A stretch of DNA of 64,000 nucleotides from Felixounavirus LF82P9: the sequence record OZ035757.1; one strand, given 5' to 3'. The number at the start of each line of letters is the position of its first letter. The first letter of the stretch is position 1. Positions 30,439 through 63,585 of the stretch are shown piece after piece. Both the position numbers and the translations under genes were made by a program. The notes below the pieces were generated by a model, which was given only the letters and a program-made list of their open reading frames with translations, was not told the origin of the DNA and did not search any database.

Positions 30439-30709
30439 AGAGAAGTGGGAGATTTTACCACTAGTTAGTGAGGGTGGCAATGGTTGTGAAATGTACATGA
30501 TACGTGGTCATGTTCCAGAACCAATTGCACTTGAGATGATAAACAATTTTACAGATGGTTCTTACAAAGACTTAGGAGAACCAACTGTCAAGCAACAATG
30601 GGTTAAACCTGTACCAGACAGCACAGGTAACTGTAGTGTACTTTATCACGTTGTAGACCCTGTAAAATGCAAATCTGCAATGGCAGTAACAAACGTAACT
30701 TTTGATTGA
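30431..30709 (+). CDS. hypothetical protein
   Basis: ORF track. Confidence 0.4.
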   Translation: MAKEKWEILPLVSEGGNGCEMYMIRGHVPEPIALEMINNFTDGSYKDLGEPTVKQQWVKPVPDSTGNCSVLYHVVDPVKCKSAMAVTNVTFD

Positions 30710-31602
30710 GAGAGAAAACTATGAAAACATCTATCCGTGTTACAGTTCATTCACCAACTAAAGGAACTCATGAAGAAGAGTTTAACATCATCCAATTCCC
30801 TTCTGGTGAGATTGGTGGAAACTTTTCACCAGAGTTTGTTGATTTTACTGCTTATGCAGCATCATCTATCAACAATGTGATTATGATTGTAAAAGGTTAT
30901 GATAAAGATACATTGTTTGCTGTGGCACTTGCTAAAGAGGCGGTGGACAACTTAGTTCCTCATAAGTTTGCTATGAAGACCATTATCTTTTACTATTTGC
31001 CAAATGCACGTTATGACCGTCACATGTTTAAAGGTGATGCAGCAGCTTTGAAAGTGTTTGCACAACAGGTTAATGCAATGGGTTTTGATGCAGTCTGTGC
31101 AGTTGACCCTCACAGCTATGTACCAGATAACCTGTTTAACTGCTTCCAGAGTATTCCTCAAAAGGAAATTGCAGTCCACTATGCAAATGACCCACTAGTT
31201 GATTACTTAGTAGCCCCAGATGCAGGTGCTGCTAAGAAGATTGCAGAGACTGCTAAAGAGGTGGATAAGCCATACATCACAATGTCTAAAGTACGTAACC
31301 TTAAGACTGGTGAAATTACTGGTATGCGAATCCTTGATGATGTTGATTTGACAGATAAAACCGTCATGATTCTGGATGATATTTGTGATGGAGGACGGAC
31401 CTTCATAGAAGCAGCTAAACATCTTCGTGAAGCAGGTGCAAAACGCGTGGAACTCTATGTAACACATGGTATCTTCTCTAAAGATGTTGAAAACCTTCTT
31501 GACAATGGTATTGACCACATCTACACTACAAACTCTTTAGGGGAAGCTAAAGACCGTGGCTTAACACATTATGGTCAAGTTACTGTAGCAAATTTGGACT
31601 AG
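30706..31602 (+). CDS. prs: ribose-phosphate pyrophosphokinase (PRPP synthetase)
   Basis: VMILDDICDGGRTF PRPP-binding signature. Confidence 0.85.
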   Translation: MREKTMKTSIRVTVHSPTKGTHEEEFNIIQFPSGEIGGNFSPEFVDFTAYAASSINNVIMIVKGYDKDTLFAVALAKEAVDNLVPHKFAMKTIIFYYLPNARYDRHMFKGDAAALKVFAQQVNAMGFDAVCAVDPHSYVPDNLFNCFQSIPQKEIAVHYANDPLVDYLVAPDAGAAKKIAETAKEVDKPYITMSKVRNLKTGEITGMRILDDVDLTDKTVMILDDICDGGRTFIEAAKHLREAGAKRVELYVTHGIFSKDVENLLDNGIDHIYTTNSLGEAKDRGLTHYGQVTVANLD

Positions 31603-32117: not shown

Positions 32118-33899
32118 ATGAGTAAGTCACTTTACGCAGTACCAGCAGGTCTTAATGCAGATGCTTACAAGGCATCACATATATATCAGTATCCAGATGC
32201 TACACAGTATCTTATGTTGAACCTGACACCACGTAGTGATAAATGGTTTAACAGCCCTTTAGCAATTGATGGTGTAGTTGCTTTTGGTATTCAACGTTTT
32301 GTTAAAGACTACCTAATAGACCACTGGAACGCCACCTTCTTCGAACGTGACAAAAAAGAAGCAATTGACGAAATCTTAGAAGTCATGAACGGTGTTCTGG
32401 GTAAAGATGCTATTGGTCGAGAGCATTGGGAAGCACTTCATGACTTAGGTTATCTACCAGTTGAAGTATACGCTGTAGAAGAAGGCACAGTTGTCCCTAT
32501 GCGTGTACCAATGATTGTCTTCCAGAACACTGTTTCAGGTTTCCATTGGGTAGCGGGGTATCTGGAAGATGCTTTCTCTGCTGAGATTTGGAAGGCTTGT
32601 ACCATTGCAACTATTGCATTGCACTACAAACGTATCTGTAAGAAGTGGGCTGACCTTACTTGTGACAACGACTTGCATTTACCTTATCAGTGCCATGACT
32701 TTGCTATGCGTGGTATGTCCGGCTTTACTGATGACGCATTTAACGCTGTAGGCCACTTAACCAGCTTTAAAGGAACTGATAGCTTCCCTGCTGTGTATAC
32801 GGCTAAACGAATCTATGGACAGTCCTACCCAATCTCTGATATTGGTAGCTCTGTACCAGCCACTGAGCACTCTGTAATGTGTGCAAACATTGCTTGGGAA
32901 GGTGGTAATGAGTTGATTGAAGAAGAAAGACGCTTTAAAGGTGAGTTACAAACCTTCCGTCGTTTCTTAACAGAAACTTACCCAACTGGTATTGCAAGTA
33001 TTGTTTCAGACACTTATAACTTCTGGAGAACTGTGTCAGAAATTTTACCAGCACTTCGTAAAGAAATTATGGAACGTGATGGCAAACTGGTAATTCGTCC
33101 TGACTCTGGAGACCCTGTACATATTGTCACAGGTTATAAAGCAATCCACTTAGAATGTGCTAAAAAGGCTTATTACGAACACTTAAGCAAGCTTGAAGCC
33201 AGCGACACAATGTTGAATGCTGTTCTGAACATGAAGCTTGAAAACATAAATTATGGTATTGCTGGATGGCTACTGTCAGAAGGCTACGAAATGGTTGTTG
33301 ACAGAGAAGACTTTGAAGTTGCTGATACAGTGCTGTTGAAAAACGCTTATATGGTTGGTTCTGCAAACGTTGTAACACGTCCTGTAGCTGAGATTGATGG
33401 AGCTATTAAGACACTGTACAACATCTTTGGGGGAACTATTAACTCTAAAGGATTTAAGGTACTGGATGAGCATATAGGACTTATCTATGGTGACTCTATC
33501 ACGCTGGAACGTGCAAACGAAATCCTGAAGCGTCTGTATGAAATGGGTTTTGCAAGCTCTAACGTAGTGTTTGGCGTAGGTTCTTACACTTACCAGTACA
33601 TGACTCGTGACACCTTTGCATTTGCTGTCAAAGCAACTCTTGCAAGCATTGGTGGTAAAGAGATTATGCTTGCAAAAGACCCTAAAACAGATAGTGGTGT
33701 TAAGAAATCTGCCTTTGGTGGTGTAGCACCTATGTGGGATGGTGACAAGCTGAAAGCCGTAGATGGCTATGGATTCCAGAGTTTTGCAGATGTACTTGAC
33801 CACCCAGCTTGTGCCTTACGTTTAGTCTTTAGTGACTCTGAGCAGTTCGGTTACACAACTCTTGGGGATATTCGAAATAATATTGACAAGCAGCTTTAA
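32118..33899 (+). CDS. nadV: nicotinamide phosphoribosyltransferase
   Basis: N-terminal ADAYKASHIYQYP resembles NAMPT family; 593 aa is longer than typical. Confidence 0.8.
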   Translation: MSKSLYAVPAGLNADAYKASHIYQYPDATQYLMLNLTPRSDKWFNSPLAIDGVVAFGIQRFVKDYLIDHWNATFFERDKKEAIDEILEVMNGVLGKDAIGREHWEALHDLGYLPVEVYAVEEGTVVPMRVPMIVFQNTVSGFHWVAGYLEDAFSAEIWKACTIATIALHYKRICKKWADLTCDNDLHLPYQCHDFAMRGMSGFTDDAFNAVGHLTSFKGTDSFPAVYTAKRIYGQSYPISDIGSSVPATEHSVMCANIAWEGGNELIEEERRFKGELQTFRRFLTETYPTGIASIVSDTYNFWRTVSEILPALRKEIMERDGKLVIRPDSGDPVHIVTGYKAIHLECAKKAYYEHLSKLEASDTMLNAVLNMKLENINYGIAGWLLSEGYEMVVDREDFEVADTVLLKNAYMVGSANVVTRPVAEIDGAIKTLYNIFGGTINSKGFKVLDEHIGLIYGDSITLERANEILKRLYEMGFASSNVVFGVGSYTYQYMTRDTFAFAVKATLASIGGKEIMLAKDPKTDSGVKKSAFGGVAPMWDGDKLKAVDGYGFQSFADVLDHPACALRLVFSDSEQFGYTTLGDIRNNIDKQL

Positions 33900-38130: not shown

Positions 38131-38679
38131 ATGAAGAAATTGATTCTAGGTTTGTGCTTAATGTTTACAGCACACTTATCTTATGCAGTTGACTGCCCAG
38201 AGCTATCAATTAGCCAAAAAGTAAACATGTTAAAAGCTTACCAGTATGGTGAGAATAACATGGGTAAAGGTTGGGGTATCACTCTAGCTGCTATAGCCTT
38301 ACAAGAGTCAGAGTTAGGTCTGAAGGTAGAGAATAAAAAGACACATGATTATGGTATTTTCCAGAATCACTTGAAGACTGTTGTAAAGCGTAACAAAATT
38401 AGTCCTAATGTGGCTAAAAAGAAACTCTTAAAAGACTTTGACTATGCTGCAAAGGAAACGCACAAAGAACTTGAATTTTGGACAAAGGTGCATGGTCAGC
38501 CAAAGTCAAAGAAGACTTTACAAAAAGTTTTAGCATCATATAATGCTGGGTATTCGTACAGAATCCCTAAAGCTAAGAAATATTCTCAAGATGTCTATAA
38601 CAACATGAAAGTCATCGCTCAATGTGAATTTGCAACAAACATTTCTAAGGTAAACCATGAAAAAATTAAGAAAGTCTGA
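38131..38679 (+). CDS. secreted lytic transglycosylase-like protein
   Basis: Signal peptide; ALQESELG, DYGIFQ and SYNAGYS resemble SLT-domain motifs. Confidence 0.5.
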   Translation: MKKLILGLCLMFTAHLSYAVDCPELSISQKVNMLKAYQYGENNMGKGWGITLAAIALQESELGLKVENKKTHDYGIFQNHLKTVVKRNKISPNVAKKKLLKDFDYAAKETHKELEFWTKVHGQPKSKKTLQKVLASYNAGYSYRIPKAKKYSQDVYNNMKVIAQCEFATNISKVNHEKIKKV

Positions 38680-39352
38680 TGAAGTCCTGTGTCATGCTTA
38701 TGACTTGCATCCTCATGAGTTTGGTCTTGATTCCTGTGTATGGACTCCAGAACAGTGCAGGGATTTTGAAGACACAGCAAGAGAAGTTGTATGTTCACTT
38801 GAAGAGTTCCACACATCAGAGCCAATTGTGAATGTTGTAGATAAAGAGACTGGACAAACTATAGGGGTAAGTCGTGATAGTTTAGTCATAGTCAATAAAG
38901 ACCTTGTAGAAAAAGGTAACCTCATCTTAGCAGATATTGATGGTGTTCTTACAAATTTTAATCACGAAGATTGCTCAACGGAATTGACTGATGGGTCATT
39001 CTCACAGTACACTAATCTTCTTGACTCTGTAAGAGCAAAACCAACGTATGTTTTTAGTATTATTGATGCAATTGCTAATCATGCTGCCATTGGACTCTTG
39101 ACAGCGAGAGGTGAATCTCAGAGAATACCTACTGAGATGTTTTTAAGGCATAACATAGAGCATGACTACATGCTTTTTATGCGTGGTTTTGGGACTAACT
39201 CTATAAGTGCAGAAAGTTTGAAAGTGAGGATGATTCAGTCTTGCATTCTGCCTTACTTTAATATAGTATGTTTTATAGAAGACACAGAGAAGAATGTGCA
39301 GAAGGTGAACAGAATACTTCCACACATCAAAACCATGTTAGTTAAACATTGA
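38657..39352 (+). CDS. HAD-like hydrolase domain protein
   Basis: LILADIDGVLT resembles HAD motif I; start uncertain (overlaps upstream gene). Confidence 0.35.
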   Translation: MKKLRKSDEVLCHAYDLHPHEFGLDSCVWTPEQCRDFEDTAREVVCSLEEFHTSEPIVNVVDKETGQTIGVSRDSLVIVNKDLVEKGNLILADIDGVLTNFNHEDCSTELTDGSFSQYTNLLDSVRAKPTYVFSIIDAIANHAAIGLLTARGESQRIPTEMFLRHNIEHDYMLFMRGFGTNSISAESLKVRMIQSCILPYFNIVCFIEDTEKNVQKVNRILPHIKTMLVKH

Positions 39353-39838: not shown

Positions 39839-39860
39839 AGGCTCCTTCGGGAGCCTTTTT
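39839..39860 (+). terminator. rho-independent terminator
   Basis: Stem aggctcc/ggagcct with UUCG loop then TTTTT. Confidence 0.6.
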
Positions 39861-40988: not shown

Positions 40989-41190
40989 AAAGACACGGAA
41001 ACTCGTCCGGTCAGCAGTATTCATTGGAAGAAATGAAGTCATCCCGTTTACAGCAAACGATGTGATAGCCTACAGGAAAAACTTAGTATTTAGTGATTGC
41101 TTGCGTGGCTTCATCTCCCAACCATTGGAAGACTTTAAAAGCCGTTGTGGTAAAGGTATCATCATTCAAGAGGCAATTATCAATGGCTGA
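40963..41190 (+). CDS. hypothetical protein
   Basis: ORF track. Confidence 0.35.
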   Translation: MRVILARDKKTRKLVRSAVFIGRNEVIPFTANDVIAYRKNLVFSDCLRGFISQPLEDFKSRCGKGIIIQEAIING

Positions 41191-41383
41191 CTTCTGCAAA
41201 GACTGTTCTATAGAAATGTTTGGACGTGATACAGGTGACTTAAAAGGTCTTATCACTGAAGATGACTTTAAAGCTGGTTATGCAATGCCAGTAATCTGTG
41301 AAGGTTGTGGATGTATCTGGGTAGACCATGAGGGGCAACGTGTAAAACCTTCAGAAGATAAAGAATCTTGGGAGAGATGTTAA
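41183..41383 (+). CDS. small zinc-ribbon protein
   Basis: ORF 41093-41383 trimmed to internal Met; CKDC ... CEGCGC. Confidence 0.35.
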   Translation: MADFCKDCSIEMFGRDTGDLKGLITEDDFKAGYAMPVICEGCGCIWVDHEGQRVKPSEDKESWERC

Positions 41384-42169
41384 ATGGGTATTGTAAAAAT
41401 AATCAATGGTGATATCTTTGCCGCATTTGATAAAGGTAAGTTTGACATCATCGGTCACGGTTGCAACTGTATGAATTTAATGGGTGCAGGTATCGCTGAC
41501 AAGATTTCTAAACTTTACCCAAAAGCATATGAAACCGATACAGAAGTTTATCTATATGCAGGTGGTATAGGACACAAACCCTGTGAAAATTTACTGGGTA
41601 ATTTCTCTGTAGCGCGTTTAAAACAAGGTCGTATAGCTAACCTTTACACTCAGCTTAAGACTGGTAAAGATGCCCGATACAGTGCTTTAGAGTCATCTTT
41701 GAAACAGCTTAACAGATACTGTGAAGTCAATCAGTTGAAGAAAGTCGGGTTACCTATGATTGGTGCAGGTATCGGTGGGCTAGACCCTCAAGCCGTCACA
41801 GTTATCATTAATCAGGTGATGAAGAGTGTAGATGTTTATCTATATGTCTATGAAGGAGAGATGTACCACAAGTTACGCTCAGGTTGGAAGAACTACTGTG
41901 AACCAGAATACTTTGCAGGTGTAGTTGTGTTCACGGATAATGCAGTTACCCTCTTCAGACGAAGAAAAGGTAAGATACATCAAAGTAACCCTCCGGTTGA
42001 AAAGATGTCTCTAAGTAACGCTCTAGTTACCCACCTGTCGAAGAGCAATCACAGGATTGCAGTAACATTTGGCAGTGATGCAGATACTTACATCTATGCA
42101 AGAACTGATGAGGATATCGAGACAGTTTTCTCTTCGCCAGAAGTTACCTTCTTAGACGCAAAGAGCTAA
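41384..42169 (+). CDS. macro-domain-like protein (ADP-ribose binding/processing)
   Basis: N-terminal IVKIINGDIF...DIIGHGCNCMNLMGAGIA resembles macro-domain glycine-rich motif; C-terminal ~100 aa unassigned. Confidence 0.5.
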   Translation: MGIVKIINGDIFAAFDKGKFDIIGHGCNCMNLMGAGIADKISKLYPKAYETDTEVYLYAGGIGHKPCENLLGNFSVARLKQGRIANLYTQLKTGKDARYSALESSLKQLNRYCEVNQLKKVGLPMIGAGIGGLDPQAVTVIINQVMKSVDVYLYVYEGEMYHKLRSGWKNYCEPEYFAGVVVFTDNAVTLFRRRKGKIHQSNPPVEKMSLSNALVTHLSKSNHRIAVTFGSDADTYIYARTDEDIETVFSSPEVTFLDAKS

Positions 42170-42241
42170 GAAACTTCGTAGGGTATTCACAATAGACTAA
42201 GCCTTTCTTATCTGGTAAATTTTTCAGGTAAGGAGGGCTTT

Positions 42242-42421
42242 TTCATTTCAGAATTGTGCAGGTATATCTCTGTAGAGAAATCTGTAGAGAGAATTTTGAA
42301 CTCCAAAGAGAAAATTCATTTTCAAACTGTGCAGGTAATCTCCAAAGAGCTTTTTCATTTTCAAAACGTGCAGACCCCGCTCAGGTCGGGCAAGAAAAAT
42401 CATTTTAGAATTGTGCAGGTA
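42242..42421. repeat. four direct repeats of ttcatttTcaaaNtgtgcaggta plus tandem atctgtagaga
   Basis: Copies ending near 42265, 42337, 42373, 42421; two copies embedded in ~40-bp tandem unit ctccaaagag-N-ttcattttcaaa-N-gtgcag. Confidence 0.6.
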
Positions 42422-42440
42422 GGTTTTTATAGACAGCCAG

Positions 42441-42476
42441 CCCAACCCCTCTCCCCCTCTTACTCCCCCTCTCCCC
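42441..42476. repeat. C-tract array (G-quadruplex-prone on minus strand)
   Basis: CCC, CCCC, CCCCC, CCCCC, CCCC runs with 2-6 nt spacers in an AT-rich genome. Confidence 0.5.
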
Positions 42477-42597
42477 AAAAGTCAATAGAAAAATTTGTAG
42501 CGGATTGAAAAATAATTCTTGATTTGCGTTCTGTTTTGTGGTAGTCGTGCGCACCCGTTTCATTACAGTTTTGCCAAAAATATTTTTAAAATTTTTA

Positions 42598-42626
42598 TTG
42601 ACTCTTTGAACGTGGTTATCTAATAT
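42598..42626 (+). promoter_or_regulatory. sigma70-like promoter
   Basis: TTGACT, 17-nt spacer, TAATAT; heads the small-ORF array. Confidence 0.55.
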
Positions 42627-42636
42627 TTACATCAAC

Positions 42637-42689: not shown

Positions 42690-42878
42690 ATGGCATCAAG
42701 AAAAATTAAAGTTGGCGATGAGGTTAACATTAAGCACGAATACTCTTACAAAATGCTAACTATACGCTCTTATAAGGTTTATCAGGTGGAAGCTATCCAC
42801 AAAGATAATACTTTTTCCTTAAAAGGGTATAGCGAACGTTTCCCTGCTGAACTCTTTGAGAAATGGAGCGCGAAATAA
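42690..42878 (+). CDS. small hypothetical protein
   Basis: ORF track; own hairpin-RBS cassette. Confidence 0.45.
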   Translation: MASRKIKVGDEVNIKHEYSYKMLTIRSYKVYQVEAIHKDNTFSLKGYSERFPAELFEKWSAK

Positions 42879-58339: not shown

Positions 58340-58416
58340 CTCTGTTTAGCTCAGCTTGGTAGAGCGTTCCGTTTGGGGCGGTAAGGCCGGAGGTTCAAGT
58401 CCTCCAACAGAGACCA
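58340..58416 (+). tRNA. tRNA-Pro(TGG)
   Basis: Cloverleaf; acceptor ctctgtt/aacagag; anticodon loop ttTGGgg; T-loop TTCAAGT; CCA encoded. Confidence 0.75.
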
Positions 58417-58423
58417 AATTAAT

Positions 58424-58501
58424 GTTCCAGTAGACAAAATGGTAAAGTCACCACTCTTTCAAAGTGGATATCTGAGGGTTCAAATCCCTTCTGGAACGCC
58501 A
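58424..58501 (+). tRNA. tRNA-Glu(TTC)
   Basis: Acceptor gttccag/ctggaac; anticodon loop ctTTCaa; T-loop TTCAAAT; CCA encoded. Confidence 0.8.
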
Positions 58502-58508
58502 GTTTTGA

Positions 58509-58581
58509 CAGAAGACCAATTACAGCAAACTTAATCTTATTCATCTGAAGGTAAATCGGACAAAGAAGAGATTTGGTCTGG
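58509..58581 (+). other. box-bounded spacer element E1 (candidate small structured RNA)
   Basis: 5' box CAGAAGACCaaTTACAGCAAA, 3' box tGGTCTGGt; AGACC/GGTCT can pair; family recurs at 58676, 59133, 59220. Confidence 0.4.
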
Positions 58582-58592
58582 TCATTAAGAAT

Positions 58593-58669
58593 TGCGGGTA
58601 TAGAGAAAGGGCGTCTCACATGTCTCATTAGCATGGTATCGGCAGGTTCGACTCCTGCACCCGCCTCCA
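58593..58669 (+). tRNA. tRNA-Met-like(CAT), atypical
   Basis: Anticodon loop ctCATta; T-loop TTCGACT; CCA encoded; 1:72 mismatch (U-C) and extra nt before D-stem. Confidence 0.5.
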
Positions 58670-58675
58670 AATTTA

Positions 58676-58741
58676 CAGAAGACCGTTTACAGCAAAATTG
58701 AATGAAATTTTTAGCGGAAAAAATTGAAAGATACGGTCTGG
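58676..58741 (+). other. box-bounded spacer element E2
   Basis: 5' box CAGAAGACCgtTTACAGCAAA, 3' box cGGTCTGGt. Confidence 0.4.
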
Positions 58742-58754
58742 TAATACTAAACAT

Positions 58755-58831
58755 GGTTAGGAAGCACATAAGGTATGTGCGGTCGCCTGTTAAGCGAATG
58801 GCACAGGGTTCGAATCCCTGACTAACCGCCA
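58755..58831 (+). tRNA. tRNA-Asn(GTT)
   Basis: Anticodon loop ctGTTaa; T-loop TTCGAAT; CCA encoded. Confidence 0.8.
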
Positions 58832-58900
58832 AATTTAGGAGAGAAGCGATTGCTCACCGATTTGTAAGGTGCAAGTCCTTAGCCTGAATAGAAATTAAAT

Positions 58901-58988
58901 GTGTCGTTATCCCGTAGATGGTAGCGGTGGGGACTGTAAATCCCTTGTCATTGAGACTCGGTAGGTTCGACTCCTACACGGCACACCA
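58901..58988 (+). tRNA. tRNA-Tyr(GTA)
   Basis: Anticodon loop ctGTAaa; long variable arm; T-loop TTCGACT; CCA encoded. Confidence 0.8.
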
Positions 58989-58993
58989 ATAAA

Positions 58994-59071
58994 GGTTATG
59001 TAGTTTAATTTGGTTAAAATACTCCCCTGTCACGGGAGATGATGAGGGTTCAAATCCCTTCGTAACCGCCA
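58994..59071 (+). tRNA. tRNA-Asp(GTC)
   Basis: Anticodon loop ctGTCac; T-loop TTCAAAT; CCA encoded. Confidence 0.8.
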
Positions 59072-59132
59072 ATTTTGAGAGGGCTATTTAGCCCCTCCCT
59101 TAAAGGGTTCTTACGAGTATCCTTTAAAGGAG

Positions 59133-59206
59133 CAGAAGACCAAATACAGCAAGAACGTATGAAATTTCAAGCCAATTTAATTTTGAAAATTTAAAACTTG
59201 GTCTGG
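59133..59206 (+). other. box-bounded spacer element E3
   Basis: 5' box CAGAAGACCaaaTACAGCAAg, 3' box tGGTCTGGc. Confidence 0.4.
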
Positions 59207-59219
59207 CTCAACAAATTTA

Positions 59220-59351
59220 CAGAAGACCGTTTACAGCAAAACTTAAACAATCTATTTCTCCGGTAAAGAAAAGGCGAAGGTTCGATTCCTTCACTCGGCA
59301 GAGGTCGAGTTGGTGTAATGGTAGCACTTAAGATGATAAACAACGGTCTGG
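59220..59351 (+). other. box-bounded spacer element E4 (contains tRNA-fragment-like segments)
   Basis: 5' box CAGAAGACCgtTTACAGCAAA, 3' box cGGTCTGGt; interior holds T-arm plus 3'-acceptor-like segment without a matching 5' acceptor. Confidence 0.4.
59276..59300 (+). pseudogene. tRNA 3'-half-like remnant (T-arm only)
   Basis: gaagg-TTCGATT-ccttc followed by actcggc; no complementary 5' acceptor strand found within 200 nt upstream. Confidence 0.35.
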
Positions 59352-59500
59352 TAATTATCTTTGTAGATAAGTTATTAAGCTTACCTGTGAGTATGCGACC
59401 ACAAAGGGTGAAAGGGTAAATTCTAGATTTAAACCCAAAAAGGCACATCGCTACAGACCTTAAGCAAGTCTGGGTAGCTTATCTACAAAGATAATTTAAT

Positions 59501-59576
59501 GGAAGTGTAGCAGAATGGTGATGCGGCAGACTTTTAATCTGACAGGCGATGGGTTCGAATCCCTCCACTTCTACCA
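59501..59576 (+). tRNA. tRNA-Lys(TTT)
   Basis: Anticodon loop ctTTTaa; T-loop TTCGAAT; CCA encoded. Confidence 0.8.
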
Positions 59577-59581
59577 AAAAT

Positions 59582-59658
59582 GGTTCAGTCGCAGATAAGG
59601 TAATGCAAGGGTTTCATAAGCCCTATGAATGTGGGTTCGATTCCCACCTGAACCTCCA
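59582..59658 (+). tRNA. tRNA-Met(CAT) (or Ile-lysidine type)
   Basis: Anticodon loop ttCATaa; T-loop TTCGATT; CCA encoded. Confidence 0.75.
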
Positions 59659-59659
59659 A

Positions 59660-59735
59660 GCTGGTATAGTTAAGAAGGTTATAACACTCCCCTGATAAGG
59701 GAACATCGGTGGTTCGATTCCACCTACCAGTACCA
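59660..59735 (+). tRNA. tRNA-Ile(GAT)
   Basis: Anticodon loop ctGATaa; T-loop TTCGATT; CCA encoded. Confidence 0.8.
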
Positions 59736-59750
59736 ATTTCAATAAAGTTG

Positions 59751-59779
59751 TTGACATTGAGATGTGACTACTTTATAGT
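59751..59779 (+). promoter_or_regulatory. sigma70-like promoter inside tRNA array
   Basis: TTGACA, 17-nt spacer, TATAGT. Confidence 0.55.
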
Positions 59780-60010
59780 AACCTTAGTTTTCGTTGCGTA
59801 GCGTCTATTTTGCAAATTTAAAATAAATGCAAACGACAATGTTTTTCTGGCAGTAGCTTGATAGGCTAAACACCAGTGAGGTCTTCCAATCCCTCATCAA
59901 AGAATTTGGCGTACTAGCCCACGGTATGATTAATAAGGTGGGCAACATTCTAAAGGGTATCCCTTATGGGGCTTGGCTTAAATGCAATAAGTACCCTTTA
60001 AAATGTTAAT

Positions 60011-60087
60011 GCACCCTTAGTTCAATTGGATAGAGCAACGGTCTTCTAAATCGTTAGTTACAGGTTCGAATCCTGTAGGGTGTACCA
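60011..60087 (+). tRNA. tRNA-Arg(TCT)
   Basis: Anticodon loop ctTCTaa; T-loop TTCGAAT; CCA encoded. Confidence 0.8.
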
Positions 60088-60229
60088 AATAGTTAGCAGA
60101 TTGCTTAGACGACCTTATCGGGTCTCCGTGTAAGGAGGTGGTCTGTATCTCATGTTTTCCAGAACATGTAAATAATCTGAGAAGGGGCTTGACAGTGTTG
60201 AGATAATACGGTAAGCTTCGAATTGTAGT

Positions 60230-60312
60230 GTGGGACGATGTTAAGACTCTAAGGCATGAGCAACGGCCTCCAAAACCGTTTCAAAGGGGTTCAACTCCTC
60301 CGTCCCATGCCA
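60230..60312 (+). tRNA. tRNA-Trp-like(CCA), atypical
   Basis: Acceptor gtgggac/gtcccat and T-loop TTCAACT clear; anticodon loop ctCCAaa; ~8 extra nt between acceptor and D-stem. Confidence 0.4.
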
Positions 60313-60325
60313 AAGTCTTATTAGG

Positions 60326-60413
60326 GGTAGGTAGCGGCTAATGGCAGCCAAACAGTCTTGAAAACTGTTGCCACTGTAGAGATACGGTGAGGGTTCGACT
60401 CCTTTACTTACCG
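60326..60413 (+). tRNA. tRNA-Ser(TGA)
   Basis: Anticodon loop ctTGAaa; long variable arm; T-loop TTCGACT; CCA not encoded. Confidence 0.8.
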
Positions 60414-60671
60414 CCTAATAAGATTTTACACCGTCCATGCTTGCTCGCATTTTCGGTTTATCCCTCGTGTATTGTCGTACACACTGATAAAGCACCTAGT
60501 AGGTGTCACGGAGAAGAGATAATATCAAGCTCTCCAAAGGTTCTAGTCACCGGATTAAACAAGACTATGCAAAGACCTTTTTAGGTCTTTTTAGAGGGCT
60601 TCTAAGGTTATTACAGCTTGTTGTGGAACCTTGTTGCTTAGGTTCTTAGAAGTTCTCTAAAAAGATTTAAT

Positions 60672-60749
60672 GGGAGATTGACGGTAATTGGTAAACCTAC
60701 CATCCTTAGAAGTTGGTGTTTGAGGGTTCGAATCCCTTGTCTCCTACCA
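60672..60749 (+). tRNA. tRNA with anticodon TAG (Leu by anticodon), short variable arm
   Basis: Acceptor gggagat/gtctcct; anticodon loop ctTAGaa; T-loop TTCGAAT; CCA encoded; A73; anticodon stem has one mismatch. Confidence 0.5.
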
Positions 60750-60756
60750 AATTAAT

Positions 60757-60832
60757 GCAGGTGTAGCAAAATGGTTATGCGGCTGACTCTTAATCAGTAA
60801 GACGATGGGTTCAATTCCCTCCACCTGTACCA
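60757..60832 (+). tRNA. tRNA-Lys(CTT)
   Basis: Anticodon loop ctCTTaa; near-paralogue of tRNA-Lys(TTT); CCA encoded. Confidence 0.75.
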
Positions 60833-60838
60833 AAAAAT

Positions 60839-60914
60839 GGGGTCATAGTTTATATGGTTAAAATTCGAGTTTTGCAAACTTGGGAACTGAGTTCAATTCT
60901 CAGTGACTCCACCA
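60839..60914 (+). tRNA. tRNA-Ala(TGC)
   Basis: Anticodon loop ttTGCaa; G3-U70 wobble pair in acceptor stem; CCA encoded. Confidence 0.8.
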
Positions 60915-60920
60915 ATTAGT

Positions 60921-60995
60921 GCATCCATAGTTTAAACGGGAAAATTACAGTCTTCCAAACTGAGGTTGAGGGTTCGATTCCCTCTGGATGCTCCA
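60921..60995 (+). tRNA. tRNA-Gly(TCC)
   Basis: Anticodon loop ctTCCaa; T-loop TTCGATT; CCA encoded. Confidence 0.8.
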
Positions 60996-61002
60996 AATTA
61001 AT

Positions 61003-61078
61003 GCTCCTATCGTATAATTGGCTATTACGGTTGCCTTGTAAGCAACTTATCAGGGTTCGAATCCTTGTGGGAGCACCA
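61003..61078 (+). tRNA. tRNA-Thr(TGT)
   Basis: Anticodon loop ctTGTaa; perfect anticodon stem; CCA encoded. Confidence 0.8.
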
Positions 61079-61174
61079 ATTCAGAGGTCAAGTGAAAGAC
61101 CGCTTTGAGTCAACTGAAGACCGTAACAAATTCCACGGAGTTGAGTTAGCGGCACAACTTCAGACCTCTTTCAC

Positions 61175-61249
61175 ACTCGCTTAGTTTATATGGTAAAACA
61201 CCACCCTTACAAGATGAAGAAAAAGGTTCAAGTCCTTTAGTGAGTACCA
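61175..61249 (+). tRNA. tRNA-Val-like(TAC)
   Basis: Acceptor, D and T arms good; anticodon loop ctTACaa but anticodon stem only 3 of 5 pairs. Confidence 0.5.
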
Positions 61250-61250
61250 T

Positions 61251-61328
61251 GTTCCAGTATCCCAATTGGCAGAGGATGCAAGCTCAAACCTTGTATTAGT
61301 GACGGTTCGAATCCGTCTTGGAACACCA
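61251..61328 (+). tRNA. tRNA with anticodon CAA (Leu by anticodon), short variable arm
   Basis: Anticodon loop ctCAAac; 3-bp D-stem with long D-loop; 6-nt variable region; A73; CCA encoded. Confidence 0.55.
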
Positions 61329-61333
61329 ATTTT

Positions 61334-61409
61334 GCAGGATTAGTTCAAATGGATAGAGCAACAGTCTACGAAGCTGTTAATAGGGGTTCGAACCCCTTAT
61401 CCTGCACCA
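61334..61409 (+). tRNA. tRNA-Arg(ACG)
   Basis: Anticodon loop ctACGaa; T-loop TTCGAAC; CCA encoded. Confidence 0.8.
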
Positions 61410-61427
61410 GATAAGCAAGAGGAATTT

Positions 61428-61670
61428 ATGCAAACATTAATCGTCGTTGAACATGAAAATTCCAATAGTATTGAGTTTGTAAGGGTTCCCACTATAGATA
61501 CCCACATTTTCTTAAAAGTCGGATGGGAATGCGACCCAATAAAAGTAGAAAGATTTATTGGTCATTGCTTTGGTGGAAGACAACTTAAAAGTGTCAATTT
61601 TGAGACAATGTTACCAGAAAGCTCAGAAACAAGTAATAATGCTTACCTCCTTACGAGGGTTAGACAATGA
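61428..61670 (+). CDS. hypothetical protein inside tRNA array
   Basis: ORF track; starts 18 nt after tRNA-Arg. Confidence 0.4.
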   Translation: MQTLIVVEHENSNSIEFVRVPTIDTHIFLKVGWECDPIKVERFIGHCFGGRQLKSVNFETMLPESSETSNNAYLLTRVRQ

Positions 61671-62224
61671 GATACTTAAAATATGCTTCATGGATTTTCT
61701 TAGCTTTGCTAGAACCACTTGCAGCAATACTAGCAGTTATCTTAGCACCTTTTGTAGTTCCATTCTACAGTGAGAAGAAAGGACACTTACCTTTCGGGTT
61801 CAGATGGATGGAGACATATGACAACCCAATTGATGGTGATGAAGGTCACGTTAAAAGATGGGCTAATATCAGATGGATTGGTAAACTAGGTGTCTACATG
61901 CAAAGAGTCGGATGGCTCTGGAGAAACAAAGCTTATAACTTCTCTTACCATGTATTAGGAAGAGATGTAAAAGATGTTACTAAGTGGAAAGGTAATATCA
62001 ACGTAAGTTCTGACCCTGAAGATAATCAGACAGGTTATCTCCTAATGTGGAACAGTAATGCTTGGGGATTATTCGCTTTTATCCCATCAATTAAAATCTT
62101 TGGTAAACAATTTTACTGGAGAATTTATATTGGATGGAAACTAAAAAGTGTTGTCCCAGAAGAAAGAGCATTCTCAAGGGAAAGAGTTATGTTGGCATTC
62201 TTTATTCATCCACTGAGAAAGTAA
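61667..62224 (+). CDS. Trp-rich membrane protein inside tRNA array
   Basis: N-terminal TM (WIFLALLEPLAAILAVILAPFVV); ATGA overlap with upstream ORF. Confidence 0.45.
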   Translation: MRYLKYASWIFLALLEPLAAILAVILAPFVVPFYSEKKGHLPFGFRWMETYDNPIDGDEGHVKRWANIRWIGKLGVYMQRVGWLWRNKAYNFSYHVLGRDVKDVTKWKGNINVSSDPEDNQTGYLLMWNSNAWGLFAFIPSIKIFGKQFYWRIYIGWKLKSVVPEERAFSRERVMLAFFIHPLRK

Positions 62225-62232
62225 AGATTTAA

Positions 62233-62308
62233 AGGGGATTAGTTTACAAGGTTAAAACCTCGGTCTTTGAAATCGAAGAAGTTGGTTCAATTCCAACATC
62301 CCCCGCCA
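62233..62308 (+). tRNA. tRNA-Gln(TTG)
   Basis: Anticodon loop ctTTGaa; T-loop TTCAATT; A1-C72 mismatch; CCA encoded. Confidence 0.75.
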
Positions 62309-62310
62309 AT

Positions 62311-62389
62311 GCTCCATTACTCCAATTGGCAGAGAGGCCAGACTTAAAATCTGTGTTATGTATCGGTTCGAATCCGATATGGAGTACCA
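62311..62389 (+). tRNA. tRNA with anticodon TAA (Leu by anticodon), short variable arm
   Basis: Anticodon loop ctTAAaa; D-arm paralogous to the CAA tRNA; A73; CCA encoded. Confidence 0.55.
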
Positions 62390-62394
62390 AATTT

Positions 62395-62470
62395 AGCGGC
62401 ATAGCATAACTGGCAATGCAGCAGTCTCTGAAGCTGTCTTATTAAGGTTCAAATCCTTATGCCGCTGCCA
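62395..62470 (+). tRNA. tRNA-Gln(CTG)
   Basis: Anticodon loop ctCTGaa; T-loop TTCAAAT; CCA encoded. Confidence 0.8.
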
Positions 62471-62501
62471 CTTCTAAGGATTCTTACGAGAGTCCTTAAA
62501 T

Positions 62502-62577
62502 GTGGCCTTATCATAAATGGTAATGACCCATGCTGTGAACATGGTCTATACGGGTTCAAATCCCGTAGGTCACCCCA
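62502..62577 (+). tRNA. tRNA-His(GTG)
   Basis: Anticodon loop ctGTGaa; perfect anticodon stem; C73; CCA encoded. Confidence 0.8.
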
Positions 62578-62582
62578 ATTTA

Positions 62583-62659
62583 TAGTCCAAGTAGCTTATA
62601 TGGTTAAAGCGCGTGTCTGAAAAACATGAGAAGAGGGTTCAAATCCCACTGGACTACCA
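62583..62659 (+). tRNA. tRNA-Phe(GAA)
   Basis: Anticodon loop ctGAAaa; D-arm ta-gctt...aagc; acceptor register ambiguous by 2 nt. Confidence 0.65.
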
Positions 62660-62675
62660 ATTTCAAAGGTGCTTA

Positions 62676-63410
62676 ATGAAAGAGATGACAGAACAAGGTA
62701 AGGAGATTTTCAATCTCTTAAAAACCGGTAAAGGGTTTTCTAACCCCCTTATTACTGGTGCAGCAGTTCTCGGTGGAACCGTAGCTGCCTCTACATCACT
62801 TGTAAGCTCTATTAGCTCTGTATCAGACCCTGCAGTAAAGGATAAGCTTGTTGCTGCTGGACTTACAACAGTTCTGCTTAACAGCTTTACCACGAGTCTG
62901 ACAAGCACTACATCAACTACCAAAACACTAACAGATTACGGTCAAAAGTCCATTGATGAGTTTTCATCACGTATGCAGGTAGCAAAAGGTTACTCTAATG
63001 TTATGGGTGCAGCAGGTGAACAAGTTGGCTGTACACCATTTAGTGGTATTATGGGTGTTGCTACAGAGTATGGTCAAAAAGCTATTGATACGATTAACAG
63101 TGCACTAGATAGTGTTAATGGTGTGTTAAGTGACTTACAAGATGCTATTGACAAAGGTCTTGATACTATTTCTGATTTAGCTGAGCAAGCTGTTAGTAAG
63201 ATTAATGAAGGTATTTCAAAAATTACAGCTTATGCAGATGAAGTTGTGCAGATGATTGAAGAAGAAGCTGCTCTTATTGCAGAGTACCTTAAAACGAATA
63301 TCAATGGGTTCTTAGCAGGTATCTTACCAGACTGGTTTGATGATGCTTGTAAAACTGGTGTAATTGACACTATTGCAACACCAGAAATGAAGAACGCATT
63401 ACAGAAATAA
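62676..63410 (+). CDS. Ser/Thr-rich membrane protein inside tRNA array
   Basis: ORF 62613-63410 trimmed to Met after tRNA-Phe; hydrophobic segment then S/T-rich tract; stop 2 nt before tRNA-Ser. Confidence 0.45.
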   Translation: MKEMTEQGKEIFNLLKTGKGFSNPLITGAAVLGGTVAASTSLVSSISSVSDPAVKDKLVAAGLTTVLLNSFTTSLTSTTSTTKTLTDYGQKSIDEFSSRMQVAKGYSNVMGAAGEQVGCTPFSGIMGVATEYGQKAIDTINSALDSVNGVLSDLQDAIDKGLDTISDLAEQAVSKINEGISKITAYADEVVQMIEEEAALIAEYLKTNINGFLAGILPDWFDDACKTGVIDTIATPEMKNALQK

Positions 63411-63412
63411 AT

Positions 63413-63505
63413 GGAAGATTAACCCTAAAAGGTAAGGGAGCAGTTTGCTAAACTGCCAGTAGCTGAGAAATCGGTGTACCAGTTCAAGTCTGGTATCTTC
63501 CTCCA
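63413..63505 (+). tRNA. tRNA-Ser(GCT)
   Basis: Anticodon loop ttGCTaa; long variable arm; perfect acceptor ggaagat/atcttcc; CCA encoded. Confidence 0.85.
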
Positions 63506-63509
63506 ATTT

Positions 63510-63585
63510 GAATCCGTGACAGAAATGGCTATGTGCCTGTCTGCAAAACAGGTTTATAAGGGTTCGAGTCCCTTCGGATTCTCCA
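63510..63585 (+). tRNA. tRNA-Cys(GCA)
   Basis: Anticodon loop ctGCAaa; perfect anticodon stem; CCA encoded. Confidence 0.85.

What the first reader, a model, noticed from the sequence alone, without database searches (positions are those of the whole stretch)
41384..42169. Phage-encoded macro-domain-like protein
The N-terminus (IVKIINGDIF..DIIGHGCNCMNLMGAGIA) resembles the glycine-rich nucleotide-binding motif of macro domains, which bind or hydrolyse ADP-ribose adducts. In a lytic phage this suggests reversal of host ADP-ribosylation, for example DarT-type DNA ADP-ribosylation or other ADP-ribosylating defence toxins. The C-terminal ~100 aa are unassigned. The gene sits immediately upstream of the repeat-rich regulatory region at 42242-42630.
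Basis: inference. Interest (0 to 1): 0.6.

Follow-up and report, generated by a model that had tools for sequence, protein, structure and literature searches.

The report
Phage macrodomain enzyme with extra domain
This Felix O1-type phage gene encodes a genuine macrodomain (an ADP-ribose-removing enzyme fold) related to the phage T4 protein that disarms the bacterial DarTG2 defence, fused to a fast-evolving 100-residue tail domain seen only in this phage group; it is a plausible but untested counter-defence gene, not a new kind of system.

Summary
The ORF at 41384..42169 (+, 261 aa) is real. The window is a Felixounavirus, 99.8% identical to phage KhF2. Residues 1-156 are a true macrodomain: Pfam Macro scores 32.3 bits against a cutoff of 22, and the AlphaFold model matches TARG1 and DarG with TM 0.82-0.83. 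This domain is 35% identical (E 3e-24) to T4 Tk.4/AdfM. A 2025 preprint showed genetically that T4 needs Tk.4/AdfM to resist DarTG2. The two proteins share the signature HGCNC...MGAGIA...NLYTQ...IGAGIG. The catalytic lysine of DarG (K80) and TARG1 (K84) is an invariant glutamine (Q90) here and in T4 AdfM. Streptomyces SCO6735 has the same glutamine; it cleaves thymidine-ADP-ribose and is inactivated by Q85A. Residues 157-261 form a beta-rich domain with no Pfam, NCBIfam, PDB or viral-structure match. Among 1.84 billion representative proteins it occurs only in this two-domain family. It is under purifying selection (dN/dS about 0.19, against about 0.03 for the macrodomain). Erwinia-type relatives carry an unrelated tail in its place. 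Databases call the protein "phosphatase". Verdict: a new architectural variant of a known counter-defence kind, of moderate interest.

The parts
41384..42169 (+). Complete CDS, 261 aa plus TAA stop; two-domain macrodomain protein
   Evidence: ORF list. Annotated as 'putative phosphatase' or 'hypothetical protein' in near-identical Felixounavirus genomes. PHROG 335 full length at 1e-113.
41370..41376 (+). Shine-Dalgarno-like GGGAGAG, 7 nt upstream of the ATG. It lies inside the 3' end of the upstream small ORF, whose TAA stop (41381-41383) abuts the ATG.
   Evidence: Read directly from the sequence.
41384..41851 (+). Macrodomain, residues 1-156 (TARG1/DarG-like, 'ALC1-like' class)
   Evidence: Pfam Macro 32.3 bits against cutoff 22. 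NCBIfam DarG positions 4-153 of 338, 47.8 bits. PADLOC DarG 47.7 bits. AF2 model pLDDT 85, pTM 0.86. Foldseek TARG1 TMt 0.83, DarG TMt 0.82. dN/dS about 0.03-0.04.
41456..41497 (+). H25-G-C-N28-C...M33-G-A-G-I-A38: first ADP-ribose/phosphate-binding loop. N28 aligns with DarG N22. H25 aligns with Poa1p H23 and TARG1 H32.
   Evidence: Invariant in 19 family members. MAFFT alignment with DarG and TARG1. phmmer alignment with Poa1p wild type and its H23A and S30A mutant chains. HGCNC occurs in 73 of 79 related viral loci.
41639..41653 (+). N86-L-Y-T-Q90 motif. Q90 (41651-41653) occupies the position of the catalytic lysine of DarG (K80) and TARG1 (K84).
   Evidence: Three independent alignments agree: phmmer, profile hmmsearch and MAFFT. 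Q is invariant in the family and present in T4 Tk.4/AdfM.
41753..41785 (+). P124-M-I-G-A-G-I-G-G-L-D134: second glycine-rich (diphosphate-binding) loop. G131 occupies the position of TARG1 D125.
   Evidence: Alignments; invariant columns.
41852..42166 (+). C-terminal orphan domain, residues 157-261: linker helix 158-167, then six beta strands (179-239) and a short helix (245-249).
42199..42240 (+). Terminator-like hairpin (17 pairs) followed by a T-run; likely 3' end of the transcription unit that ends with this gene
   Evidence: Consensus scan. A rho-independent terminator is annotated at the same place in phage ASO1A.

Best explanation
The gene encodes an AdfM-type phage counter-defence enzyme. 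Its N-terminal macrodomain binds ADP-ribose attached to thymidine in single-stranded phage DNA, the mark written by the host toxin DarT2, and hydrolyses the base-ribose bond. This restores replicable DNA and lets the Felixounavirus grow on DarTG2-carrying E. coli or Salmonella. Because the position of the DarG/TARG1 catalytic lysine holds an invariant glutamine (Q90), catalysis is inferred to follow the SCO6735 scheme. In that scheme the Gln positions the distal ribose and the transition state, and a backbone-held water acts as the proton donor. No lysine participates as it does in DarG/TARG1. The C-terminal 105-residue beta-rich domain is a lineage-specific accessory module. Its role is unknown. 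My best guess is an adaptor that binds a partner (the toxin, or a replication or ssDNA-associated protein), not a catalytic element. SHOWN: the ORF, the macro fold, homology to T4 AdfM and to DarG/TARG1, the K-to-Q state, the orphan status of the C-domain, and selective constraint on it. INFERRED: the substrate, the catalytic mechanism, the anti-DarTG2 role and the role of the C-domain.
For: The macrodomain is established by Pfam, above the curated cutoff, and by fold: TARG1 TMt 0.83 and DarG TMt 0.82, E about 1e-9 to 1e-8. The only NCBIfam and PADLOC hits are DarG. The domain is 35% identical (E 3e-24) to T4 Tk.4 over the whole macrodomain, with the same HGCNC / NLYTQ / IGAGIG signature. A T4 tk.4 (adfM) knockout is sensitised to DarTG2 (preprint). 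Chimallivirus AdfM removes DarT2-made ADP-ribose from DNA in vitro (PMC13309987). N28 aligns with DarG N22. A Gln at the catalytic-Lys position is compatible with thymidine-ADPr hydrolysis: SCO6735 has Gln85 at the position equivalent to K80/K84, cleaves dT-ADPr DNA, protects against DarT, and Q85A/E is inactive (PMC9411070; PMC9967889). The macrodomain is under strong purifying selection (dN/dS about 0.03) and the C-domain under weaker purifying selection (about 0.19). The gene sits in a conserved rIIA-rIIB-lysin-PNKP...macro block, even in relatives with 33-35% identity. It is present in most Felixounavirus genomes: 204 of 239 matching records hold at least 80% of the region.
Against: No experiment exists on this protein or on any Felixounavirus homologue; literature searches found none. 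The T4 AdfM evidence is genetic only and comes from a preprint. DarG W83, said to stack on thymine, is not conserved: T93 aligns there. Overall sequence similarity to SCO6735 itself is weak (5e3b E 0.51). The Q90 = Q85 equivalence is therefore transitive, combining my alignment to K80/K84 with the papers' statement. TARG1-class macrodomains also act on protein Asp/Glu-ADPr, O-acetyl-ADPr, RNA U-ADPr and phosphate-linked nucleic-acid ADPr, so the substrate is not fixed by fold. The 105-aa extra domain is absent from T4 AdfM, which may signal a different target or regulation.
Confidence: 0.6

Rival explanations
1. It is an ADP-ribosyl hydrolase, but its relevant substrate is not DarT2-modified DNA. 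Candidates are ADP-ribosylated protein (Asp/Glu), ADP-ribosylated RNA (uracil-linked or phosphate-end), or O-acetyl-ADP-ribose. It would then counter a different ADP-ribosylating or NAD-consuming defence, with the C-terminal domain providing that specificity.
For: TARG1-class enzymes, including the Gln-type SCO6735, are promiscuous: they act on protein-ADPr, T-ADPr DNA and U-ADPr RNA. The extra C-domain distinguishes this protein from T4 AdfM. The phage carries NAD-salvage genes 8-10 kb upstream, NAMPT at 32118-33899 and a PRPP-synthetase-like gene at 30706-31602. In Vibrio phages Quinn and Gary the macro homologue lies beside ribose-phosphate pyrophosphokinase. This hints at a wider NAD/ADP-ribose theme.
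Against: The only experimentally anchored close homologue (T4 Tk.4) has a DarTG2 phenotype. The best defence-library and NCBIfam models are DarG. No specific alternative target is indicated by any result.
Confidence: 0.2
2. It is a non-catalytic (or mainly non-catalytic) ADP-ribose binder. The loss of the catalytic Lys/Asp pair would mean the macrodomain only binds ADP-ribose, ADP-ribosylated DNA or the toxin. It would then shield or sequester rather than hydrolyse, possibly helped by the C-domain.
For: K80/K84 is replaced by Q90 and TARG1 D125 by G131. Catalytically dead SCO6735, DarG and TARG1 still inhibit DarT by interaction. DarG K80 mutants still counteract DarT partly.
Against: In SCO6735 the Gln supports fast hydrolysis and is essential for it. 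Q90, H25 and N28 are invariant, and dN/dS is very low (about 0.03), as expected of an active site.
Confidence: 0.08
3. It is an ADP-ribose-1''-phosphate phosphatase (Poa1p-like), as the database label 'phosphatase' implies. It would process a by-product of RNA repair or splicing, or of NAD metabolism, perhaps linked to the nearby polynucleotide-kinase-like gene and the 26-tRNA cluster.
For: The N-terminal 40 residues align with yeast Poa1p, including its H23 (E 0.003-0.005). T4 Tk.4 is annotated 'contains A1pp phosphatase motif'. A PNKP-like gene lies at 38657-39352. 26 tRNA genes lie at 58340-63585.
Against: Similarity to Poa1p is confined to one loop. Poa1p S30 is L32 here. Whole-domain similarity is better to TARG1 and DarG. 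From general knowledge, T4-type PNK/ligase RNA repair produces no 2'-phosphate and hence no Appr>p or Appr-1''-p, so no source of substrate is evident. The 'phosphatase' name is inherited annotation, not a tested activity.
Confidence: 0.07
4. It reverses or tunes ADP-ribosylation written by the phage itself, an eraser for a phage ADP-ribosyltransferase analogous to T4 Alt/ModA/ModB.
For: T4, which carries the homologue Tk.4, encodes three ADP-ribosyltransferases.
Against: No ADP-ribosyltransferase is annotated in the Felixounavirus genome stretches inspected. I did not scan every ORF. T4-type ARTs modify arginine, which is not a known TARG1-class substrate (general knowledge).
Confidence: 0.03

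Closest known systems
T4 Tk.4 = AdfM (anti-DarT factor Macrodomain), T-even phages; bioRxiv 10.1101/2025.11.20.689424
   Same: Homologous over the whole macrodomain (35% identity, E 3e-24). Same HGCNC, MG(A/S)G(I/V)A, NLYTQ and IGAGIG motifs, including Gln at the DarG K80 position. Both belong to lytic Enterobacteria phages, and both are annotated 'phosphatase'.
   Different: T4 AdfM is a single domain of 155 aa. The Felixounavirus protein has an additional 105-aa C-terminal domain with no counterpart in T4. The genomic neighbourhoods differ (tk-vs in T4, rII-PNKP block here). The anti-DarTG2 phenotype is shown for T4 only.
DarG2 antitoxin macrodomain (Thermus aquaticus 5M31/5M3E, M. tuberculosis 5M3I)
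   Same: Same fold (TMt 0.78-0.82). It is the best NCBIfam and PADLOC model. N22 is conserved as N28, and both glycine-rich loops are conserved.
   Different: The catalytic K80 is Q90 and W83 is T93. DarG's C-terminal DarT-binding domain is not detectable: HMM matches stop at position ~150 of 329-338, and the C-domain alone hits nothing. There is no adjacent darT. The score of 47.8 bits is far below the family cutoff of 250.
SCO6735 (Streptomyces coelicolor, PDB 5E3B), a Gln-type TARG1/ALC1-branch hydrolase
   Same: It has Gln (Q85) at the position of DarG K80 / TARG1 K84, as Q90 here. It lacks the Lys/Asp pair yet cleaves thymidine-ADPr on DNA and protects against DarT. Residues mutated in that study (H24, N27) appear, by their near-identical numbering, to correspond to H25 and N28 here. 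I have not aligned them directly.
   Different: Overall sequence similarity is only weak (E 0.51). It is a bacterial DNA-damage-inducible gene and a single domain. Its lysine-bearing mobile loop is not obviously conserved.
Human TARG1/OARD1 (4J5R/4J5S)
   Same: It is the best PDB match by sequence (E 1e-5, or 4e-11 with the family profile) and by structure (TMt 0.83).
   Different: K84 is replaced by Q90 and D125 by G131. It is eukaryotic and a single domain.
Chimallivirus AdfM (PhiKZ gp104 and relatives; PMC13309987)
   Same: A phage-encoded macrodomain that counters DarTG2. ADP-ribose removal from DNA is shown biochemically.
   Different: It retains the DarG-type lysine (K78) according to the paper. 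It is imported into the phage nucleus. It is a different clade of macrodomain from the HGCNC/NLYTQ clade.
Yeast Poa1p (6LFQ), ADP-ribose-1''-phosphate phosphatase
   Same: It shares the H-x-C-N-C...G-x-G-I-A...YPKA stretch, including H23 = H25. This is the source of the 'phosphatase' label.
   Different: Similarity is limited to about 40 residues. S30 is not conserved. The rest of the domain is closer to TARG1 and DarG.

Membership tests
Macro domain superfamily (Pfam PF01661) | Profile-HMM score above the curated gathering threshold | tested here: met
   32.3 bits against cutoff 22, E 1e-7, residues 25-141 covering profile positions 2-117 of 118.
Macro domain superfamily (Pfam PF01661) | Three-layer alpha/beta/alpha macro fold | tested here: met
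   AF2 model pLDDT 85, pTM 0.86. Foldseek finds 231 PDB matches at E <= 1e-3; the top 50 listed are macrodomains or serine hydrolases designed on one, led by TARG1 (TMt 0.83) and DarG (TMt 0.82).
Macro domain superfamily (Pfam PF01661) | Two glycine-rich ADP-ribose/diphosphate-binding loops | tested here: met
   M33-GAGIA38 and I126-GAGIGG132 are invariant or nearly so and align with the DarG and TARG1 loops.
TARG1/DarG-type (Lys-dependent) ADP-ribosyl glycohydrolases | Catalytic lysine in the T-K motif (TARG1 K84, DarG K80) | tested here: not met
   Q90 occupies this column in phmmer, hmmsearch and MAFFT alignments. Q is invariant in all homologues collected.
TARG1/DarG-type (Lys-dependent) ADP-ribosyl glycohydrolases | TARG1 Asp125 partner residue | tested here: not met
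   G131 aligns with D125.
DarG2 antitoxin (NCBIfam NF048014 / PADLOC PDLC02990) | Full-length equivalog score, including the C-terminal DarT-binding domain | tested here: not met
   47.8 bits against cutoff 250. Only model positions 4-153 of 338 (NCBIfam) and 18-146 of 329 (PADLOC) are matched. The C-domain alone gives no DarG hit.
DarG2 antitoxin (NCBIfam NF048014 / PADLOC PDLC02990) | Operon partner darT toxin gene | tested here: not met
   The + strand neighbours are small ORFs of at most 115 aa upstream, with a terminator and repeat region downstream, in a lytic phage genome. None was individually profiled for DarT.
DarG2 antitoxin (NCBIfam NF048014 / PADLOC PDLC02990) | Active-site Asn (Taq DarG N22) | tested here: met
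   N28 aligns with N22 and is invariant in the family.
AdfM, T4 Tk.4 type (phage anti-DarTG2 macrodomain) | Significant homology to T4 Tk.4 across the macrodomain with shared signature motifs | tested here: met
   BLASTP 35% identity, E 3e-24, residues 3-157 against 1-151. HGCNC / NLYTQ / IGAGIG are shared.
AdfM, T4 Tk.4 type (phage anti-DarTG2 macrodomain) | Required for phage growth on DarTG2-expressing hosts | not testable with these tools
   This needs a phage deletion mutant and plaque assays. It is shown only for T4.
AdfM, T4 Tk.4 type (phage anti-DarTG2 macrodomain) | Stand-alone single-domain architecture (~150 aa) | tested here: not met
   This protein is 261 aa with a folded 105-aa C-terminal domain. 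Most other phage homologues are 145-186 aa.
SCO6735-type (Gln-dependent) thymidine-ADPr hydrolases | Glutamine at the position of DarG K80 / TARG1 K84 | tested here: met
   Q90 aligns to K80/K84. The literature places SCO6735 Q85 at the same position. The equivalence to Q85 is therefore transitive.
SCO6735-type (Gln-dependent) thymidine-ADPr hydrolases | Direct sequence relatedness to SCO6735 | tested here: inconclusive
   5e3b_A matches residues 4-146 at only E 0.51. I could not display a residue-level alignment.
Poa1p-like ADP-ribose-1''-phosphate phosphatases | Residues targeted by the deposited Poa1p mutant structures (H23, S30) and whole-domain similarity | tested here: inconclusive
   H23 = H25 is conserved and S30 = L32 is not. 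Only residues 17-55 align (E 0.003-0.005). The fold match to Poa1p (TMt 0.74-0.75) is weaker than to TARG1 and DarG.

The most novel reading that the evidence does not exclude
The orphan C-terminal domain is a second, non-enzymatic anti-toxin module. It would be a functional analogue of DarG's DarT-binding domain, without being its homologue, and would bind and block DarT2 or another host ADP-ribosyltransferase directly. The Felixounavirus protein would then be a convergently assembled 'complete antitoxin' with two modes of action. The rapid turnover of the domain (dN/dS five-fold higher than the macrodomain, outright replacement in Erwinia-type relatives) would reflect an arms race with variable host toxins. 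A variant of this reading is that the domain retargets a Gln-type macrodomain to a substrate not yet known in phage defence.
Probability: 0.15. Interest if true: 0.6.

Novelty: new variant of a known kind. Interest (0 to 1): 0.35.

Why it matters
Phage macrodomains that erase DarT2-written DNA ADP-ribosylation were first reported only in 2025-2026, in T4 Tk.4/AdfM and chimallivirus AdfM. This finding extends that counter-defence family to the Felix O1 group (Ounavirinae). These are therapeutic and typing phages of Salmonella and E. coli, and in them the gene is near-universal.

It also brings out two points that the searchable literature does not state. First, the T4-type AdfM clade, including this protein, carries Gln rather than the DarG/TARG1 catalytic Lys. 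It should therefore work by the SCO6735-type water-mediated mechanism. That is directly testable with a Q90A mutant and bears on inhibitor and specificity studies.

Second, in Ounavirinae the enzyme is fused to a constrained but fast-evolving orphan domain that is swapped between lineages. This is a candidate specificity or toxin-binding module. If the function is confirmed, the gene would predict the host range of Felix O1-like phages on DarTG2-positive strains.

Tried and rejected
1. C-terminal domain identity. All of the following gave nothing significant:
- Pfam scan of 16 members; best hit was the PH domain at E 0.06-0.16, below threshold.
- NCBIfam scan.
- PDB profile search; best hit BamB at E 0.018, with no matched stretch passing the threshold on its own.
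- Foldseek against BFVD; only the phage SUSP2 homologue.
- HMMER profile against 1.84 billion representatives; only the same family plus weak multi-stretch hits in three or four very long proteins (P0033, P0034, P0037, P0038), which I took to be repeat or composition artefacts and did not follow.

2. Foldseek against afdb50 was not available on the machine.

3. DNA mimic or DNA binder? The net charge and pI of the C-domain vary from -5 to +4 across the family with no consistent sign. I rejected both readings as unsupported.

4. Homology between the Felix-type and the Erwinia-type C-terminal extensions: hhalign probability about 0.1%, so rejected.

5. A conserved partner gene. The upstream small Zn-ribbon-like ORF abuts the start codon here, and a different CxxC protein does so in L004, but L005 has an unrelated 103-aa protein. 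It is not a conserved pair.

6. I could not obtain a residue-level alignment to SCO6735 (5E3B). The five TARG1 sequence variants always fill the five alignment slots, so the Q90 = Q85 equivalence rests on transitivity.

7. The LeRoux 2022 DarTG paper is not in the held library. Searches for Felixounavirus with macro domain or with DarTG returned nothing relevant.

8. I considered whether the four downstream repeats are a genome-wide promoter motif. They occur only at 42243-42419 in this window.

9. Model coordinates are not exposed. I could not inspect the pocket, the position of Q90, or whether the C-domain contacts the active-site cleft.
Full report
**What is there.** It is preceded by GGGAGAG seven bases upstream. 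The 1.8-kb region is 99.8% identical to Enterobacteria phage KhF2 and 95-98% identical to many Felixounavirus genomes. In those genomes the gene is labelled "hypothetical protein", "putative phosphatase" or "phosphatase". The window is therefore a Felix O1-like (Ounavirinae) lytic phage.

The gene is the last in a + strand run that begins after a terminator-like hairpin at 39839-39856. It ends at a strong terminator-like hairpin at 42199-42240. An equivalent terminator is annotated in phage ASO1A. The neighbourhood rIIA-rIIB-lysin-PNKP-like-small ORFs-macro is conserved, even in metagenomic relatives whose macro protein is only 33-35% identical.

**The macrodomain is real.**
- Pfam Macro (PF01661) scores 32.3 bits against a gathering cutoff of 22 (E 1e-7) and covers essentially the whole profile.
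- PHROG 335 ("phosphatase") matches the full length at 1e-113.
- The only NCBIfam and PADLOC hits are DarG. In both, only the N-terminal macro part of the model is matched, and the score is far below the equivalog cutoff (47.8 against 250).
- Sequence searches of the PDB return TARG1/OARD1, DarG from Thermus and Mycobacterium, Poa1p and viral macrodomains.
- An AlphaFold2 model built from 19 family members is confident (pLDDT 85, pTM 0.86).
- Foldseek places the model closest to TARG1 (TMt 0.83) and the DarG macrodomain (TMt 0.82), then Poa1p and viral macrodomains.

I could not inspect the ADP-ribose pocket itself, because model coordinates are not exposed. Its presence is inferred from the conserved binding loops and from superposition on ligand-bound macrodomains.

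**Which macrodomain.** A tblastn search of 50,697 phage genomes finds relatives in 2,848 records. Only 257 of these cover at least 80% of the protein. The rest match only the first ~155 residues at 28-45% identity.

In T-even phages the match lies next to the valyl-tRNA synthetase modifier gene, that is, at tk.4. T4 Tk.4 (155 aa) is 35% identical to residues 3-157 (E 3e-24). It shares the signature HGCNC...MG(A/S)G(I/V)A...NLYTQ...IGAGIG.

A 2025 preprint reports that tk.4 is the single T4 gene that becomes conditionally essential on DarTG2. It also reports that a clean knockout is sensitised, and it names the gene adfM. A 2026 paper shows that a chimallivirus macrodomain, also named AdfM, removes DarT2-made ADP-ribose from DNA and protects PhiKZ.

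**An active-site twist.** Three independent alignments (phmmer, family-profile hmmsearch, MAFFT) put Q90 in the column of the catalytic lysine of TARG1 (K84) and DarG (K80). They put G131 in the column of TARG1 D125. I recovered the real DarG sequences from the PDB search output for this purpose.

N28 aligns with DarG N22. H25 aligns with Poa1p H23 and TARG1 H32. The Gln is invariant in the 19 two-domain proteins. It was found in every homologue where the motif could be located: 68 of 79 related viral loci, with no variant residue at this position; in the other 11 my pattern did not find the motif. It is also present in every macrodomain-containing protein hit and in T4 AdfM itself.

According to the paper, PhiKZ AdfM keeps the lysine (K78). 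The T4/Felix clade is therefore not a DarG-type enzyme in the strict sense.

There is a published precedent. Streptomyces SCO6735 belongs to the same TARG1/ALC1 branch and lacks the catalytic pair. It has Gln85 at the position equivalent to K80/K84 and cleaves thymidine-linked ADP-ribose from DNA efficiently. It protects against DarT and is inactivated by Q85A/E. The proposed mechanism uses the Gln to position the distal ribose and a backbone-held water as proton donor. I infer the same mechanism here. The Q90 = Q85 equivalence is transitive, because direct similarity to 5E3B is weak (E 0.51).

**The C-terminal domain.** Residues 157-261 fold, in both the full-length and the stand-alone model, into a helix followed by six strands and a short helix. 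The stand-alone model has pLDDT 79. The domain matches nothing outside its own family:
- no Pfam or NCBIfam family;
- no PDB sequence;
- in BFVD, only the homologous protein of phage SUSP2.

A profile search of 1.84 billion representative proteins recovers only the same two-domain family, fragments of it, and a few weak hits in very long proteins. It shows no similarity to the DarT-binding C-terminal half of DarG.

The domain is nevertheless a real, constrained coding region. Across 28 distinct alleles, pairwise dN/dS at low divergence is about 0.18-0.19. The macrodomain is at about 0.03-0.04. Against the window protein, amino-acid identity in the C-domain falls to 45-52% where the macrodomain keeps 76-81%. 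It falls to 13-19% where the macrodomain keeps 40-53%.

In Erwinia-type Ounavirinae the protein has the same length (260 aa), but its last ~105 residues show no detectable similarity to this domain. Other lineages carry still other tails or none. Net charge is inconsistent across the family, so neither a DNA-mimic nor a basic DNA-binding role is supported. The domain is best described as a lineage-specific, rapidly evolving accessory module. A partner-binding role is a guess.

**Alternatives.**
- The database label "phosphatase" traces to the A1pp/Poa1p motif. Similarity to Poa1p is limited to ~40 residues and one of its two probed residues, and no source of ADP-ribose-1''-phosphate is evident. 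I rate this reading low.
- A different ADP-ribosylated substrate (protein, RNA, O-acetyl-ADPr) cannot be excluded, because TARG1-class enzymes are promiscuous. The phage also carries NAD-salvage genes nearby: NAMPT at 32118-33899 and a PRPP-synthetase-like gene at 30706-31602.
- A purely binding role is unlikely, given the SCO6735 precedent and the invariance of H25, N28 and Q90.

**Verdict.** The protein is a new architectural variant (macrodomain plus orphan domain) of a recently recognised kind, the phage AdfM anti-DarTG2 macrodomains. It is not a new kind of system. Interest is moderate. The two useful leads are the Gln-type active site shared with T4 AdfM and the swappable C-terminal module.

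Noticed in passing
window 42243-42419: Four direct copies of a ~20-nt motif (TCATTTYNRAANYGTGCAGG) lie immediately after the terminator-like hairpin at 42199-42240. They occur nowhere else in the 64-kb window (0.08 matches expected by chance). A sigma-70-like promoter match at 42598-42626 follows, before the next ORF at 42690.
   Followed up: partly
window 41183-41383: A small ORF (66 aa) with CxxC...CxxC spacing (FCKDCS...ICEGCGC), zinc-ribbon-like, whose TAA stop abuts the macro gene's ATG. A different CxxC...CxxC 63-aa ORF overlaps the macro start in the distant relative L004, but L005 has an unrelated 103-aa ORF there. It has no Pfam family.
   Followed up: partly
window 30706-31602 and 32118-33899: NAD-salvage genes lie 8-10 kb upstream on the same strand. 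One is a PRPP-synthetase-like protein (Pribosyltran / Pribosyl_synth). The other is a 593-aa nicotinamide phosphoribosyltransferase (NAPRTase + NAMPT_N). With rIIA/rIIB, the PNKP-like gene and the macrodomain they form a stretch rich in likely counter-defence functions.
   Followed up: partly
window 58340-63585: A cluster of 26 tRNA genes on the + strand (ARAGORN), covering most amino acids.
   Followed up: no
L035 1498-2280 and L036 1498-2280 (IMG/VR contigs of ~84.6 kb): Erwinia-type Ounavirinae-like relatives encode a 260-aa macro protein. Its macrodomain is 44-45% identical to this one, but its C-terminal ~105 residues have no detectable similarity to the Felix-type C-domain (hhalign probability about 0.1%). 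The tail has apparently been replaced or has diverged beyond recognition.
   Followed up: partly
P0026 (339 aa, metagenomic) and L062 1501-2250: Other members of the HGCNC/NLYTQ macro clade carry quite different C-terminal additions. P0026 carries a Pfam PF20274 domain. L062 has a low-complexity Lys/Glu-rich tail. This suggests the Gln-type macro core is combined with varied accessory modules.
   Followed up: no
Phage records MT460516 (Vibrio phage Quinn) and MW344054 (Vibrio phage Gary): In these Vibrio phages the macro homologue lies beside or overlapping a gene annotated ribose-phosphate pyrophosphokinase. This is a possible recurring link between phage macrodomains and NAD/PRPP metabolism.
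   Followed up: no
P0033 (2851 aa), P0034 (1239 aa), P0037, P0038; Very long proteins give several weak matches each to the C-domain profile (E 9e-10 to 9e-4, up to 7 stretches). They may be beta-repeat proteins matched by composition, or they may hint at the origin of the fold. I did not examine them.
   Followed up: no
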